From IMG/VR virus record IMGVR_UViG_3300009011_000012, positions 1 through 64,000 of that record: a DNA stretch of 64,000 nt; one strand, 5' to 3'. The stretch's first letter is position 1. Each line of letters begins with the position of its first letter. This DNA is from a virus. A program made the position numbers and the translations under genes. Shown piece after piece: positions 33,877 to 37,691 of this stretch. Below the pieces are notes generated by a model, which ran no database searches, was not told the origin of the DNA, and saw only the letters and a program-made list of their open reading frames with translations.

Positions 33877-35487
33877 TTATCGCATAAGGATTGGTTTACC
33901 GATGATGCGGCGCGCTGAACCGGTAGGGCACACTGCCCATTCGACTTGCCAGTAATCGCTCTCCAGTTGAGCCACAGTGATTACAAATGGCTCTTCGCCC
34001 TGAGACTTATCTCGGGGCTTTACCAGTGCACCTGCTGAATAGAAGCGCTCCAGTAATTCGGTCATGCCTTTCGTGAGTGACTCTTGGGTAACACCGTCCG
34101 GCTCGTGCTTGATAGCTTCAGCGAGCTCATAGAAGTTACGGGCGATGGCATTCATCAAGGAGGAGACGTGTTGGAAGCGAAGGTAGTTCTTTTTGGTAAA
34201 CGTGGTCAGCGCGTCATCAATATAAACATCACCGCTGGCCGACACTTTTACAGGATTGATTCGTGCCGTAACGAAAGCTTCCAGGTCGATAGCATCGAGG
34301 TTTGGAATCTTGGTGATGTTTTGACGATCGATAATGCCTCGGGATGTCCCCGCAGGGGAATAATGCCAGCCACCGACATCTGGTACCATCGCAACGCCTT
34401 TCGCTTTAGCTACAAAAGCGTCACAGCTAATACCGAAGACAACCTGCATGCCAGTTGCACTGTCTTTACAGGAATAAGGGAAGTAGTAGCGTGCGGGCTG
34501 GTGTGAACCACCAAAGCCATGACCTTTGGCTTCGGTGATCGCAGCTGCAGCTGTCTGATTGCCTGAAAGATCATAGAAGAAGTCGACGCGAACTGCTTCT
34601 GCCAGGTCCTTCAGTGCAGCTAGTACAGTTGAGTCGTAACAACCCAGCGAGAGAATGGCAGTTACATTGATCGGGGCTTGTTCCAGAATAGCCAGTGCTT
34701 TCAGGTATTCTTCAGCAGTAACTTTCGAGAACGTGCCATCAGAACCACCCACGAACGCCACATCTGTGAACGTAATGCCTGTGAACAAATCATCTTTATC
34801 ATCACTGGTGATCACGCAACCTAGGCGGGTAGACATGCTTTCCAACATGGTTTGCAACCATGCTGGTTGGCCCATATCGTTGACGGCCTCTGGGTTGAAA
34901 GAAACCTGATGAGTTTCGAGTTGTTCCACAGAACCATCCGATTGGGTTTCTTTTAGCGTCAGGTTGAGAAGGTCGCTATCCTCATCACTATCAAGCGAAA
35001 TTGTACGATTGCCTGAAGCCTCGCCGTCTTTGATGTAAATGATGGCCAGTTCGCCATCCTTAAGTGCTGGTGTTTCGTGGGGACCAAACTGAGCCCCTTT
35101 TAACACGTACTCACCCAGAACGGTGAAGGATTCGCCTTCTTCAACCTGGTTTTCTTCCCCAGAAGCCTTAGAAATGATGATGCCCGGGACCTTCATATCT
35201 GAAGGGCAAACGCGCACTACATAACCATCGCCACCTTTAACCGCCTGCTGGACGTGACGGAATGGCTCGAATGCCGAACCCAGTCGAGGATGGATTGGTG
35301 TTCCAAGCACATCCTTATAGTTCGATGCTGTGACCTGTAGCACCTTACCCGGCGCGCCACGGCGAGAAATCACCAGACCAGCGAAAACGGAGCTGCCGCC
35401 GCTGCCGGTGGATAGGGTCGCATCAGCGTTAACAGGCATAATGCCGACGCCAGCTGCTTGCCCTACTGAATATCCGATCTTATTCAT
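33877..35487 (-). CDS. 22: Tail sheath protein gp22
   Basis: DVGGWHYSPAG, NYLRFQHVSSLMNAI and CPTGSARRI match the P1 sheath. Confidence 0.93.
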   Translation of the reverse strand: MNKIGYSVGQAAGVGIMPVNADATLSTGSGGSSVFAGLVISRRGAPGKVLQVTASNYKDVLGTPIHPRLGSAFEPFRHVQQAVKGGDGYVVRVCPSDMKVPGIIISKASGEENQVEEGESFTVLGEYVLKGAQFGPHETPALKDGELAIIYIKDGEASGNRTISLDSDEDSDLLNLTLKETQSDGSVEQLETHQVSFNPEAVNDMGQPAWLQTMLESMSTRLGCVITSDDKDDLFTGITFTDVAFVGGSDGTFSKVTAEEYLKALAILEQAPINVTAILSLGCYDSTVLAALKDLAEAVRVDFFYDLSGNQTAAAAITEAKGHGFGGSHQPARYYFPYSCKDSATGMQVVFGISCDAFVAKAKGVAMVPDVGGWHYSPAGTSRGIIDRQNITKIPNLDAIDLEAFVTARINPVKVSASGDVYIDDALTTFTKKNYLRFQHVSSLMNAIARNFYELAEAIKHEPDGVTQESLTKGMTELLERFYSAGALVKPRDKSQGEEPFVITVAQLESDYWQVEWAVCPTGSARRIIGKPILMR

Positions 35488-35552
35488 TGCACTTACCCCT
35501 TCGGCGTGCGATTTGAACTTAAAACATTTCCCCCTCATGCGAGGGAGGAAAA

Positions 35553-35831
35553 TTATTCGCCTACGGTGAAGGTGTCACCCACGGTAGCGTCTTGTTTTTC
35601 GCTATCCACGCTGACGCCCTCTACGGTAACTACTGCCGCTTTAACCACAACCTTATGAGTAACGGTGTGGCCACCATCAGCAGTTGTAATAGTCAGTTCG
35701 GCTTCGCCAGGACCTTCTGCTTTACATTTATTGTTTTTACCCACAGATACGACCGCAGGGTTACTTGATACGACAGTAATGGCCTTGTTGGTGGCGTTTT
35801 CAGGGAAAACGGAAACTTTGATATCTGGCAT
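35553..35831 (-). CDS. Ig-like (Big_2) protein, circularly permuted
   Basis: Own RBS AGGAG; V.PENATNK..T..SS.P.V.SV...G.A..T.TT.DG core, with the usual first strands (V.GVSV...VGDTF) at the C-terminus. Confidence 0.85.
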   Translation of the reverse strand: MPDIKVSVFPENATNKAITVVSSNPAVVSVGKNNKCKAEGPGEAELTITTADGGHTVTHKVVVKAAVVTVEGVSVDSEKQDATVGDTFTVGE

Positions 35832-35842
35832 TTTGTTCTCCT

Positions 35843-35863
35843 AACGCCCCATAAGGGGGCGTT
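35843..35863. terminator. Hairpin between gene 23 and the Ig gene
   Basis: AACGCCCC-ATAAG-GGGGCGTT; no U-tract; abuts the RBS. Confidence 0.45.
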
Positions 35864-35883
35864 GTAAATAGACGTTTTATGGC

Positions 35884-35964
35884 TTACTCAATTGCGAACG
35901 AGTCACCCTCAGATAACTCCTGGCCGTCAGATGAAACTGAAACGCCAGTTACTCCGACTTTTTT
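35884..35964 (-). other. Candidate programmed -1 frameshift site and capsid C-terminal extension
   Basis: GAA AAA AAG TCG GAG TAA ends gene 23; the -1 frame reads VGVTGVSVSSDGQELSEGDSFAIE*. Confidence 0.75.
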
Positions 35965-37691
35965 TCTTCTTCATCCGTGGTTTCCCCTGGATTTGATGCT
36001 GAGGAGTTAATCTGGCCTGTCAGCATGTTGATCGCGCCTTCTTTGGAGTGCGTCAGACGTAAACGTGCGAAATAGTTTTCACCGTTACGAGGGTGAACAT
36101 CATTGATTGCTGAACCCCACAGAGTTGTACGGTTAACCAGGCTCGGGTTGGTTTCGTGGACGTAAGGAATTGCTGCTACTGCATCACCGGCGATCAGACC
36201 TGCTTTGCCGATATCGTTGCCGCGACCGTAGAAATAGATGTCATCCAGGCCAAGGTCATAACCCTGTTTCTGGAACTGCTCGCAAACTGGAGTAGGGACT
36301 TCGTAAATGCGGATAGATCCAAAAAGGGTACCGATGTACTGAATGTACGGAGATTGGACATAACCCGGGGCCAGCTGGAAATGCTGAGGTGGTAGTGAGC
36401 GCAGGAAGTTAGCTGCATCGCCACCAGCGAAGCCACCGCGAATACCTGAAGCCAGGGTGCGGTTAGCCATATCCTGGGACAAAGCATTCACAACATGGCG
36501 CATCAGACTTACCCATGATTCATAGCTTTGTGCTTCTGGAAGAGCAGCATCGAATTCACGGCCATACACGGTATGGAAAACCAGCGTGCGAAGGCGCATT
36601 ACATCTTGTTCATGGCTGAGCCACTGGCGCATTGCTGAGAACTGAGTCGCAGCCATGTTAATACCAAATTCACGGCTGGCATCAGACGCGGACATGATGG
36701 TGTGTTCAGATGCAACAACATACTGAGACGGCTTAACTTTGTAGTTACGCATCGCCTGGTTGATGACGGGGATCAGGTTAGGAGCGCGCTCGATGTTGAT
36801 CTCAACCTGTACTGCAAGCTCGGTACCTTCCGCTGGTGCATCGGTAAAGGTGATATCAATTACACCGGTGTCGTATGCCACCTTCGCAGTAGCAGCAAAC
36901 AGATTGCCTTTGCTATCCGAACCGTTGAAATACAGATTGCCGTCACCATCGTCAACTTTCGATGGTTTACGATTGATTAACAGCTTGTTATAGCCAGCAC
37001 GGATAGGGCAGTTTTGTCCTTCAAAGTCCTTAATATCGAACTTGAAAACTTTGGTTACACCATCGCCTTTTGCCGCCAGCTGGTACAGTCGTTTCATCTG
37101 ACTGTAGACGCCAGCGCTTTGCATATTCAATTCATCGCCTGGCTTGAAAGTGCCAAAATTGGTGCCTGCGATGTTGATGAGTTCGTAGATGTCTGATTCA
37201 TCACGTTCGCATGGGATGAAAGTGCAGGCATCGCTTGTGGCTGCGCCCAGGGCAGCTGGCAGAATCAGCGCTGCAAATTGAGCGATGCGCATAACACCAT
37301 CAGAACTGCGCATGGATTCAGCAGCGGACTCGAACATCGCCTTACCGGTGCCGCTATGCTTATCTTTAGCGCATTCTGTCATAAGGTTTTCGAGCGCGAC
37401 GTGACAGTTTGCCAGCACGTCTACAGCCGGGTAACGGCCGTGCTCTTGTTTATACTGGTGCATAGCCATAGCCCAGCCACCTGCAATTTGCAGGGCTGCA
37501 TCAGGATCGACACCTTCGAACATTGGCACCTTTTGCACTGCTGAGGTAAGGCTCGCCGTCATGGCGGCTTCATCGGCAATCAAATTGCCTGCACCGTCGG
37601 TGATTGGTTCGATAGTCATCGCCATGACGGAAGCCGCCCGACTCATCATTTCTTTCTCGCGTTTGCGAGCTGGCTGAATATCTTTATTCAC
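35949..37691 (-). CDS. 23: Major capsid protein gp23
   Basis: 580 aa; AGLIAGDAV and NRTTLWGSAIND.HPRNG match P1 gp23. Confidence 0.93.
   Translation of the reverse strand: MNKDIQPARKREKEMMSRAASVMAMTIEPITDGAGNLIADEAAMTASLTSAVQKVPMFEGVDPDAALQIAGGWAMAMHQYKQEHGRYPAVDVLANCHVALENLMTECAKDKHSGTGKAMFESAAESMRSSDGVMRIAQFAALILPAALGAATSDACTFIPCERDESDIYELINIAGTNFGTFKPGDELNMQSAGVYSQMKRLYQLAAKGDGVTKVFKFDIKDFEGQNCPIRAGYNKLLINRKPSKVDDGDGNLYFNGSDSKGNLFAATAKVAYDTGVIDITFTDAPAEGTELAVQVEINIERAPNLIPVINQAMRNYKVKPSQYVVASEHTIMSASDASREFGINMAATQFSAMRQWLSHEQDVMRLRTLVFHTVYGREFDAALPEAQSYESWVSLMRHVVNALSQDMANRTLASGIRGGFAGGDAANFLRSLPPQHFQLAPGYVQSPYIQYIGTLFGSIRIYEVPTPVCEQFQKQGYDLGLDDIYFYGRGNDIGKAGLIAGDAVAAIPYVHETNPSLVNRTTLWGSAINDVHPRNGENYFARLRLTHSKEGAINMLTGQINSSASNPGETTDEEEKKSE

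What the first reader, a model, noticed from the sequence alone, without database searches (positions are those of the whole stretch)
35553..35964. Capsid -1 frameshift supplies a donor beta-strand for a circularly permuted Ig protein: candidate self-polymerising head fibre
Seen: gene 23 ends GAA AAA AAG TCG GAG TAA. This contains the heptamer A_AAA_AAG (35964-35958), with a possible CUGGC...GCCAG stem-loop 9 nt downstream. A -1 slip appends VGVTGVSVSSDGQELSEGDSFAIE*. The next gene (35831-35553, own AGGAG RBS) is a Big_2-type Ig domain that starts mid-fold (IKVSVFPENATNK) and carries the normally N-terminal strands at its C-terminus (VTVEGVSVDSEKQDATVGDTFTVGE). The two peptides align without gaps at 11 of 23 positions and end at essentially the same point. 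Known: A_AAA_AAG is the dnaX/IS-type slippery site; phages add whole Ig domains to capsid or tail proteins by frameshifting; pili polymerise by donor-strand complementation. Inference: frameshifted capsid subunits display only the donor strands, which complete the first Ig subunit. That subunit's tail completes the next, giving a capsid-anchored Ig chain whose number is set by frameshift frequency. I do not know of a description of this arrangement.
Basis: partly seen in the sequence, partly recalled or inferred. Interest (0 to 1): 0.92.

Follow-up and report, generated by a model that had tools for sequence, protein, structure and literature searches.

The report
Split Ig domain decorating phage capsid
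In this P1/D6-like phage-plasmid, a ribosomal slip at the end of the capsid gene adds the first three strands of an Ig-like domain, and the next small gene encodes the rest of that domain plus a spare copy of the same strands, so the protein probably snaps onto the capsid, and possibly onto itself, by completing a shared fold; I found no description of this for phages.

Summary
The capsid gene ends in A_AAA_AAG. The -1 frame behind it encodes strands A-A'-B' of a Big_2 Ig domain. The next 92-aa ORF is a Big_2 domain lacking exactly those strands, and it carries a second copy of them at its C-terminus.

This is not a recently broken gene. The split is kept across one clade with three lineages (window type, D6 type, L115 type), with Ig proteins only 42-52% identical. 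All three parts are under purifying selection. In window-type relatives, codon periodicity shifts by -1 exactly at the heptamer. One lineage fuses the donor segment to the capsid in frame. A more distant relative has a complete in-frame capsid-Ig fusion.

AlphaFold2 models the Ig ORF alone poorly (pLDDT 63). A natural read-through that joins extension and ORF gives a confident, complete Big_2 fold (Z 13.4) with the C-terminal tail left free.

Docking by fold complementation is well supported. Chain growth through the tail is plausible but untested. A weaker donor-like insert lies in the tail sheath of the same genomes. I found no prior description.

The parts
35949..37691 (-). Major capsid protein gene (P1 gp23 homologue), 580 aa in frame 0
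   Evidence: 80.6% identical to the phage D6 major capsid protein and 46% to P1 gp23. Matches solved P1 Gp23 9ukm, E 8e-171.
35958..35964 (-). Slippery heptamer A_AAA_AAG in the X_XXY_YYZ phase of the capsid frame. It is the proposed -1 frameshift site; the A7 run would also allow transcriptional slippage to the same product.
   Evidence: The same heptamer at the same place in every D6-type relative, followed by TGA, TAA or TAG, and in L034.
35909..35957 (-). Predicted RNA stem-loop directly 3' of the heptamer (includes CUGGC/GCCAG); possible frameshift stimulator
   Evidence: MFE -25.5 kcal/mol, z -2.1. D6-type relatives have a different, invariant long-range stem (GUGGCGA/UCGCCGC) starting 5 nt after the heptamer, and low synonymous divergence there. 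Its function is inferred.
35884..35958 (-). -1 frame extension of 24 codons plus stop: donor segment, equal to strands A, A' and the first half of B of a Big_2 domain
   Evidence: Translation. No ATG/GTG/TTG in frame, so it cannot start on its own. Tails-only HMM 22.7 bits, i-E 2e-5. 3 of 3 substitutions in relatives are synonymous in this frame.
35843..35863 (-). GC-rich hairpin (GCCCC-N-GGGGC type) that follows the capsid gene in all P1/D6-like relatives
   Evidence: Fold -14.2 kcal/mol. The same element lies behind the capsid gene in P1, JK004, L034 and D6.
35838..35842 (-). AGGAG ribosome-binding site of the Ig ORF
   Evidence: Sequence. The offset between extension frame and Ig ORF frame is 0, 1 or 2 in different relatives, so the ORF is initiated independently.
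35634..35831 (-). Ig ORF residues 1-66: acceptor part, a Big_2 domain from mid strand B to strand G that lacks about the first 19-22 residues of the fold
   Evidence: Pfam Big_2 profile 23-79/79. Model residues 1-69 align to 7quz 44-112 and lambda gpV 178-246, whereas the full domains start at 25 and 159. dN/dS 0.10.
35556..35633 (-). Ig ORF residues 67-92: C-terminal tail, a second donor segment (strands A, A', first half of B), joined to strand G by about 3 residues
   Evidence: Aligns without gaps with the capsid extensions. V84 G85 D86 F88 V90 are invariant in 12 proteins of 42-87% identity. dN/dS 0.19. Left disordered in both AF2 models.
35530..35548 (-). Hairpin behind the Ig ORF, before the sheath gene
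   Evidence: Inverted repeat CCTCCCTC/GAGGGGG read; not analysed further.
33877..35487 (-). Tail sheath gene (P1 gp22 homologue)
   Evidence: Matches solved P1 Gp22 8jaj, E 1e-127.
35110..35190 (-). Insertion in the sheath protein (VPGIIISKASGEENQVEEGESFTVLGE) with weak likeness to the donor segments; possible third docking site (tentative)
   Evidence: All five Ig-ORF genomes examined have an insertion here; the Ig-less relatives L004, L005, L006, L034 and P1 have none, while L011 and L014 carry unrelated inserts at the same site. Donor HMM trained without sheaths: D6-type sheaths 11.7-16.4 bits (i-E 0.001-0.03), window sheath only 6.0 bits. Pfam gives no Big_2 hit.

Best explanation
A Big_2 Ig-like domain is split between two polypeptides.

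A fraction of capsid subunits is made by a -1 shift at A_AAA_AAG. This is ribosomal, or an extra A from slippage on the A7 run. These subunits end in a 24-residue surface peptide that supplies strands A, A' and the start of B.

The 92-aa protein is encoded between the capsid and sheath genes. It is the rest of the domain and cannot fold completely alone. It docks non-covalently on the capsid peptide by fold (strand) complementation.

Its own C-terminal 25 residues are a second copy of the donor segment, joined by a linker too short to reach its own groove. This tail can complete the domain of another copy. Head-to-tail chains of Ig domains can therefore grow from each frameshifted capsid subunit, resembling a tandem Big_2 rod built from one small gene.

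Shown here: the coding status and conservation of all three parts, that extension plus ORF equal one Big_2 fold, and that the tail is homologous to the missing strands.
Inferred: docking in trans (about 0.75), chain growth beyond one copy (about 0.45), and exposure on the capsid exterior.
For: 1. Architecture. Pfam ranges are 23-79/79 for the ORF and 2-79/79 for the complete in-frame domain of relative L034. MAFFT places L034's N-terminal strands on the D6-type extension and the rest on the ORF.

2. Conservation. The heptamer is kept in all D6-type relatives with three different stop codons. dN/dS is 0.44 for the extension in the -1 frame against 1.3-1.5 in the other two frames, 0.10 for the domain and 0.19 for the tail. 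3 of 3 extension substitutions in window-type relatives are synonymous in -1, while capsid substitutions sit at frame-0 third positions.

3. L115/L116 carry the donor segment fused in frame to every capsid subunit, followed by the same kind of ORF. This donor aligns to L034's genuine Big_2 N-terminus (E 1e-4).

4. All split genomes form one clade (100/100), so the split is old.

5. A family of 91-92-aa proteins, 42-87% identical, shares the same start and the same end. VGDxFxV in the tail is invariant.

6. AF2 on the ORF alone gives pLDDT 63, tail unplaced, Z 6.7. The ESM Atlas model has pLDDT 0.55. AF2 on the natural read-through extension-linker-ORF of L025 gives extension pLDDT 88 as three strands, domain 86-95, tail disordered, Z 13.4, rmsd 1.3 A over 85 residues to 7r3t_B, and Z 12.6 to lambda gpV Ig.

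7. The ORF profile aligns colinearly to 87-residue stretches of tandem Big_2 arrays, so the tail sits where the next domain would begin.
Against: - No multimer prediction, virion proteomics, frameshift assay or image was available.
- The AF2 read-through model is of a D6-type sequence, not the window's. Its alignment held one complete Big_2 row, which biases it towards completion.
- The split lies in the middle of strand B, with 2-4 residues of overlap, which is unusual for strand donation.
- The extension is the least constrained part (dN/dS 0.44). Its low synonymous rate shows RNA-level constraint that muddies the test.
- Predicted frameshift-stimulating structures are only modest (z -1.5 to -2.6) and differ between lineages.
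- Nothing shows that chains longer than one unit form. An unlimited polymer has no obvious terminator.
- The split arose once, so co-occurrence of the parts is a single phylogenetic event.
Confidence: 0.6

Rival explanations
1. One-to-one decoration only. The ORF protein docks on the capsid donor peptide. Its own tail is a built-in cap: it occupies the groove of the same or a partner molecule (a closed swapped dimer) to keep the unassembled protein soluble, and the capsid peptide displaces it. No fibre forms.
For: This equally explains conservation of the tail and its homology to the extension. In L115/L116 every capsid subunit carries a donor, which fits full one-layer occupancy. Displacement of a capping strand is how chaperone-usher pilins assemble (established knowledge).
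Against: The linker between strand G and the tail is only 3-5 residues, and the ORF is colinear with tandem arrays. Native-like self-insertion is therefore sterically unlikely. Neither AF2 model puts the tail in the groove. After displacement the freed tail would still be able to bind another copy.
Confidence: 0.25
2. The extension is not made in useful amounts. The ORF protein acts on its own, self-associating through its tail or binding elsewhere such as the sheath. The -1 frame peptide is an evolutionary leftover kept open by RNA-structure constraints.
For: The extension has the highest dN/dS (0.44) and a low synonymous rate, which points to nucleotide-level constraint. No direct evidence of frameshifting exists. 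D6's record annotates the frame as a separate 34-aa ORF.
Against: The window's extension has no start codon in frame. The other two frames give dN/dS above 1. 3 of 3 changes in window-type relatives are synonymous in -1. Window and D6 extensions keep Big_2 strand patterns although their DNA no longer aligns. L115/L116 fuse the segment in frame to the capsid.
Confidence: 0.08
3. A decaying gene: a frameshift-accessed complete Ig domain (as in L034) was broken by insertion of a hairpin and RBS, and the pieces are on their way out.
For: L034 has a continuous capsid-Ig fusion with the same heptamer. P1-type relatives do without any Ig.
Against: The split is shared by a whole clade, with ORF proteins down to 42% identity and all 91-95 aa. 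dN/dS is 0.10-0.19. The tail motif is invariant. About 105 plasmids carry the intact ORF.
Confidence: 0.03
4. A second recoding event (ribosome hop as in T4 gene 60, or read-through) joins the extension to the ORF into one continuous capsid-Ig chain.
For: In the window, GAG before the extension's stop and a GAG 46 nt downstream, in frame with the ORF, resemble take-off and landing codons around a hairpin.
Against: The codon match is absent in D6. The frame offset between extension and ORF is 0, 1 or 2 in close relatives, and the gap length varies from 24 to 52 nt. The ORF has its own strong RBS and ATG everywhere.
Confidence: 0.02

Closest known systems
Ig-like domains added to phage structural proteins by programmed frameshifting (survey by Fraser et al. 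2006; T7 capsid 10A/10B; own knowledge, not re-read here)
   Same: A slippery site at the 3' end of a capsid gene gives a minority of subunits a C-terminal, surface-displayed Ig-type addition. The Big_2 family is the one most used by phages.
   Different: Known cases add whole domains. Here the shift adds only the first three strands (24 aa). The remainder is a separate gene product with its own RBS.
   Same: A Big_2 domain at the C-terminus of an HK97-fold capsid protein. L034 keeps the same GAA AAA AAG at the junction. The model matches phi29 capsid chains at Z 9.6-9.9.
   Different: Those are one covalent chain on every subunit (barring a shift at L034's retained heptamer). The window's domain is divided between two polypeptides.
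Donor-strand complementation or exchange polymers: chaperone-usher pili and Caf1, type V pili (C-terminal donor strands), archaeal cannulae (chaperone-free; PMC12518558)
   Same: The subunit is an Ig-like fold that lacks strand(s). A terminal extension of the neighbour supplies them, and head-to-tail repetition gives a fibre. As in type V pili, the donor is C-terminal.
   Different: There is no homology to pilins. Three strands, not one, are donated, and the cut lies inside strand B. No chaperone, usher or protease is evident. The initiator would be a virus capsid protein. Polymerisation is not shown.
Engineered split Ig-like domains (SpyTag/SpyCatcher type tag-catcher pairs; own knowledge)
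   Same: A short peptide displayed on a scaffold completes a truncated Ig-like domain supplied in trans.
   Different: This one is natural, is presumably non-covalent (no isopeptide residues examined), and the catcher carries its own tag.
dnaX / IS-type -1 frameshift cassettes
   Same: The heptamer A_AAA_AAG, with predicted downstream structure. In D6 types a stop codon directly follows the site.
   Different: No clear upstream Shine-Dalgarno-like stimulator. Efficiency is unknown. The structures differ between lineages.
Ig-bearing capsid decoration proteins (T4 Hoc, T5 pb10, N4 decoration protein 9e99)
   Same: A small accessory Ig protein on the capsid exterior, probably for adhesion rather than assembly. 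P1, which lacks it, is viable and reported to lack decoration proteins (PMC9024508).
   Different: Those bind through a dedicated capsid-binding domain or surface. Here binding would be through completion of the Ig fold itself.

Membership tests
Pfam Big_2 (PF02368) | HMM match above the curated cut-off | tested here: met
   24.1 bits against a cut-off of 22.8; 25 bits in the genome scan; D6-type ORF 32.9 bits.
Pfam Big_2 (PF02368) | Complete domain (profile 1-79) within one polypeptide | tested here: not met
   The ORF covers profile 23-79 only. Structural alignments start about 19 residues into solved domains. Extension plus ORF together cover the whole fold (Z 13.4, 85 residues).
-1 programmed ribosomal frameshift cassette | X_XXY_YYZ heptamer in the zero-frame phase | tested here: met
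   A_AAA_AAG at 35964-35958; conserved in relatives.
-1 programmed ribosomal frameshift cassette | -1 frame downstream is coding (selection, homology) | tested here: met
   dN/dS 0.44 against 1.3-1.5 in the other frames. 3 of 3 substitutions synonymous. HMM i-E 2e-5. In-frame equivalent in L115.
-1 programmed ribosomal frameshift cassette | Stimulatory RNA structure 5-9 nt downstream | tested here: inconclusive
   Predicted folds with z -2.1 (window) and -2.6 (D6). An invariant 7-bp stem lies 5 nt downstream in D6 types, but only 2 covarying pairs were found.
-1 programmed ribosomal frameshift cassette | Two protein products observed | not testable with these tools
   No RNA holder runs listed. 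No proteomics available.
Donor-strand complementation polymers | Subunit with an Ig-like fold lacking strand(s) | tested here: met
   incomplete profile coverage and low-confidence monomer models.
Donor-strand complementation polymers | Terminal extension that supplies the missing strand(s) to another subunit | tested here: inconclusive
   The tail is homologous to the missing strands and strongly conserved. The linker is too short for self-insertion.
Donor-strand complementation polymers | Homology to pilins, or presence of a chaperone/usher | tested here: not met
   The ORF is a Big_2 domain; no pilin or usher family matched it in Pfam. It works like such a polymer at most; it is not a member.
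Circularly permuted (self-completing) domain | Relocated strands return to their native place within the same chain | tested here: inconclusive
   AF2 and ESM monomer models do not place the tail with confidence. In the read-through model the tail stays disordered while the extension fills the site. The ORF is colinear with tandem arrays. This leans against, but rests on predictions only.
Phage capsid decoration protein | Present on the virion exterior, bound to the major capsid protein | not testable with these tools
   Only gene position (between capsid and sheath genes) and the RefSeq label 'structural protein with Ig domain' for D6.

The most novel reading that the evidence does not exclude
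One 92-aa protein is a universal, self-extending Ig brick. It is nucleated by three kinds of donor segment: frameshifted (or in-frame) capsid C-termini, its own tail, and an insertion in the tail sheath. It would build non-covalent chains of Ig domains over both head and tail. Their density would be set by frameshift frequency and their length by expression level. This would be a virus-anchored, chaperone-free donor-strand polymer.
Probability: 0.25. Interest if true: 0.92.

Novelty: new variant of a known kind. Interest (0 to 1): 0.8.

Why it matters
Phages are known to display Ig-like domains as covalent additions or as separate decoration proteins with their own binding domains. A domain split between the capsid protein and a second gene product would be a new way of attaching surface proteins to a virion. 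Attachment would come from completing the fold.

It could also be a very economical way to make long adhesive Ig rods from a 279-nt gene.

It would extend donor-strand complementation from pili and cannulae to viruses. It would provide a natural tag-and-catcher pair for phage display.

It gives the conserved A_AAA_AAG a clear quantitative role. Comparing the frameshifted, in-frame-donor and full-fusion relatives offers a natural series for studying how such a split evolves.

Phage D6 grows on E. coli C600, so every prediction is directly testable.

Tried and rejected
- T4 gene-60-like hop (GAG...GAG, 46 nt): rejected. It is not conserved, and the frame offsets between extension and ORF vary.
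- Extension as an independent small ORF (as annotated in D6, orf50): rejected for the window, which has no start codon in frame. L115 also fuses the segment to the capsid.
The genomic contexts of the further family members P0167-P0171 therefore could not be read.
- The profile search of 1.84 billion representatives was swamped by giant tandem Big_2 proteins: 39,117 hits, and the best 150 were all 738-6046 aa. It gave colinearity only, not new split cases.
- Megablast against phages found nothing.
- The D6 genome paper (PMC5800970) is not held, so I cannot exclude that it mentions the frameshift. Six literature searches found no description of a split capsid Ig domain.
- Pfam on the sheath insertions gave no Big_2 hit. 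The window's own sheath segment scores only 6-7 bits with the donor HMMs.
- The tails-only HMM does not detect L115's capsid donor. Its Big_2 nature rests on BLASTP to L034.
- Heptamer frequency alone is not significant.
- No RNA holder was listed among public runs, so expression and transcriptional slippage could not be examined.
- My first script for a within-genome versus between-genome donor identity test used wrong anchors. I did not pursue it as a statistic.

Full report
**What the window is.** The region lies in an 89,473-bp virus record with terminal repeats. It belongs to the P1/D6 group of phage-plasmids. The 580-aa gene at 37691..35949 (minus strand) is 99.8% identical to capsid proteins of two Enterobacter plasmids, 80.6% to the major capsid protein of phage D6, and 46% to P1 gp23. 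It matches the solved P1 Gp23 (9ukm). The gene at 35487..33877 is the tail sheath (P1 Gp22, 8jaj). Between them lies the finding.

**Checking the observation.**
- The capsid gene ends GAA AAA AAG TCG GAG TAA.
- A_AAA_AAG is at 35964-35958.
- The -1 frame reads VGVTGVSVSSDGQELSEGDSFAIE and then stops.
- A GC hairpin and an AGGAG precede a 92-aa ORF (35831..35553).
- Pfam Big_2 matches residues 5-61 of that ORF to profile positions 23-79 of 79, so the first 22 positions of the domain are missing.
- The last 25 residues of the ORF resemble the extension.

The heptamer by itself is common (26 copies, 19 expected). The likeness between extension and tail is not chance. An HMM built only from the tails of 14 related ORFs finds the window's -1 extension as the best non-training hit among 332,000 residues of six-frame translation (22.7 bits, i-E 2e-5).

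**Relatives.** Phage D6 and about 100 Escherichia, Salmonella and Shigella plasmids have the same module. The capsid gene ends GAA AAA AAG followed at once by TGA, TAA or TAG. A 35-codon -1 frame follows (annotated in D6 as a separate 'orf50'), then the hairpin, an RBS and a 92-aa Ig ORF.
- P1 and Cronobacter phage JK004 lack the whole module; there the hairpin is followed directly by the sheath gene.
- Other relatives have low-complexity C-terminal tails on the capsid protein.

Two relatives are especially informative.
- L034 (capsid 52% identical) keeps GAA AAA AAG, but frame 0 runs on through a linker into a complete Big_2 domain (Pfam 2-79/79, 56 bits). A -1 shift there would end after five codons.
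- L115/L116 have no heptamer. The capsid frame itself continues into a donor-like segment (...VVEGVTLSPASITVSAGDEITAG...) and stops. The hairpin and an Ig ORF of the same offset architecture follow. That segment aligns to the N-terminus of L034's genuine Big_2 domain (8/19 identical, 15/19 positive, E 1e-4).

A capsid tree puts the window, L115 and the D6 types in one clade (100/100). L034 falls outside that clade, within the wider D6-side group. The split therefore arose once and has persisted.

**Is the extension translated?**
- The window's extension has no ATG, GTG or TTG in frame, so it can only be reached from the capsid frame.
- Among nine D6-type variants, dN/dS in the -1 frame is 0.44, against 1.34 and 1.48 in the other two frames. 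The capsid 3' end gives 0.06.
- Contigs of window-type relatives from three public runs differ from the window at three places in the extension. All three are third positions of the -1 frame and synonymous. All seven differences in the adjoining capsid 3' end are third positions of frame 0. Codon periodicity thus shifts by -1 at the heptamer (P about 0.02-0.04 for the three).
- The extension's synonymous rate is low in D6 types (0.20 against 0.44-0.50 in neighbouring coding sequence). This coincides with an invariant 7-bp long-range stem that begins 5 nt after the heptamer.
- The window has a different predicted stem-loop (z -2.1).

These structures may stimulate shifting, but that is inference. 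An A7 run could also give the same product through transcriptional slippage.

**Are extension and ORF one domain?** MAFFT, given a natural read-through of L025 and L034's complete domain, places L034's strands A-A' on the extension and the remainder on the ORF. The cut lies inside strand B, with 2-4 residues of overlap.

In L025 the extension and the ORF happen to share a frame. Table 6 therefore gives a natural chain: extension, one Q, 14 residues, then the ORF. AlphaFold2 results:
- ORF alone (window): mean pLDDT 63, core 70-82, tail below 55. The ESM Atlas model of the same protein has pLDDT 0.55.
- Read-through chain: extension pLDDT 88 as three strands, linker disordered, domain 86-95, C-terminal tail without secondary structure.
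- Read-through model against solved structures: Z 13.4, rmsd 1.3 A, 85 residues to the Big_2 domain of 7r3t_B (25-110), and Z 12.6 to the lambda gpV Ig domain (159-246).
- ORF alone: Z 6.7, and it aligns only from about residue 44 of 7quz or 178 of gpV.

Caveats: the read-through is a D6-type sequence, and one complete Big_2 row was in its alignment.

**The ORF and its tail.** Proteins of 91-92 aa, 42-87% identical, share the start M-[PA]-[DN]-[IV]-[QK]-V and the end ...VGDxFxV(xx); L115's 95-aa version starts MPQIIKV and ends EGETITVTL.
- V84, G85, D86, F88 and V90 of the tail are invariant in the 12 aligned proteins, and tail dN/dS is 0.19.
- Extensions and tails of 22 different sequences align without a single gap.
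- Only 3-5 residues separate strand G from the tail.
- The ORF profile aligns colinearly to 87-residue stretches of giant tandem Big_2 proteins.

The tail therefore sits where the next domain of a tandem array would begin, and should not reach its own groove. This is why I prefer 'offset window of a tandem array' to 'circular permutation'. The frame offset between extension and ORF is 0, 1 or 2 in close relatives, so the ORF is initiated independently. A hop or read-through is excluded. None of 56 other viral loci with Big_2 matches has such a truncated start.

**Mechanism proposed.** Frameshifted capsid subunits (every subunit in L115) display a donor peptide. The 92-aa protein docks on it by completing its fold. 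Its free tail can then complete another copy, giving a chain of Ig domains. P1's capsid has 775 subunits at T=13 and 53 sheath rings (PMC12810830), so the number of anchors could be large.
- Docking is well supported; I put it at about 0.75.
- Chain growth is a reasonable reading of the conserved tail but is untested (about 0.45).
- The main rival is one-layer decoration with the tail acting as a self or partner cap.

The sheath proteins of all five Ig-ORF genomes examined carry an insertion after ...DMKVPG. The Ig-less relatives L004, L005, L006, L034 and P1 have none there; L011 and L014 carry unrelated inserts at the same site.

A donor HMM trained without sheath sequences finds the D6-type insertions as the best non-training hits: 11.7-16.4 bits, i-E 0.001-0.03. 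A genuine Big_2 N-terminus (L034) scores 13.7. The window's own insertion scores only 6 bits, L115's fails, and Pfam sees no Big_2. This is a possible third docking site. It remains tentative, and because the clade is single it counts as one evolutionary event.

**Comparison and novelty.** Frameshift-added Ig domains, in-frame capsid Big_2 domains (phi29, L034), Ig decoration proteins and donor-strand polymers are each known. A Big_2 domain divided between the capsid protein and a separately translated protein that carries its own donor segment was not found in six literature searches. The public records annotate the pieces as unrelated small ORFs. The D6 genome paper could not be read. I class this as a new variant of known kinds, of high interest, and fully testable in phage D6.

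Noticed in passing
window 35110-35190 (-); L001 about 5050-5110; L028, L098, L103 and L115 sheath genes: The tail sheath proteins of all five Ig-ORF genomes examined have an insertion at one site. In D6 types it resembles the donor segments (for example KELSVEPTETTVNPGDTLSVGVA; 11.7-16.4 bits with an HMM trained without sheaths). It is weak in the window itself. It is a possible docking site for the Ig protein on the tail.
   Followed up: partly
L034 4669-4970: This relative keeps GAA AAA AAG, but frame 0 continues into a complete Big_2 domain, and a -1 shift would stop after 5 codons (AGSRR). If the site is active, the logic is reversed: the shift would make the short, Ig-less capsid subunit. 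A GCCGG/CCGGC hairpin starts at the last base of the heptamer.
   Followed up: partly
L115 and L116 2345-2790: The donor segment is fused in frame to every capsid subunit, with no heptamer at the junction, and is followed by a 95-aa Ig ORF of the same offset architecture. This is a natural 'frameshift-free' version of the system.
   Followed up: yes
window 35843-35863 (-); P1 L002 about 4230-4250; L034 about 4983-5000: A GCCCC-loop-GGGGC hairpin follows the capsid gene in all P1/D6-like relatives. In the split genomes it sits between the extension and the Ig ORF. It is probably an mRNA-stabilising or attenuating element.
   Followed up: no
L023 4695-4820: A D6-type variant has one A fewer in the A-run inside the lysine-rich end of the extension. 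This changes its last residues and lengthens it to 41 aa. The basic tail after the B' strand seems freely variable.
   Followed up: no
L004, L005, L010, L006, L030, L007, L014, L011 capsid 3' ends: Relatives without the Ig module carry low-complexity Ala/Glu/Thr/Pro/Lys-rich C-terminal tails of 10-65 residues on the capsid protein. The capsid C-terminus is a hot spot for surface additions in this group.
   Followed up: no
PDB 7quz / 7r3t (best structural matches): The closest solved Big_2 domain comes from Big_2-CBM56 constructs described as dimeric and octameric. I did not check whether those oligomers involve strand swapping.
   Followed up: no
P0156, P0163, P0165 (proteins): Natural D6-type Ig ORF variants have small in-frame changes: a duplication of AGQ, and deletions of 3-4 residues within or at the end of the domain. 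They might be assembly errors or tolerated variants.
   Followed up: no
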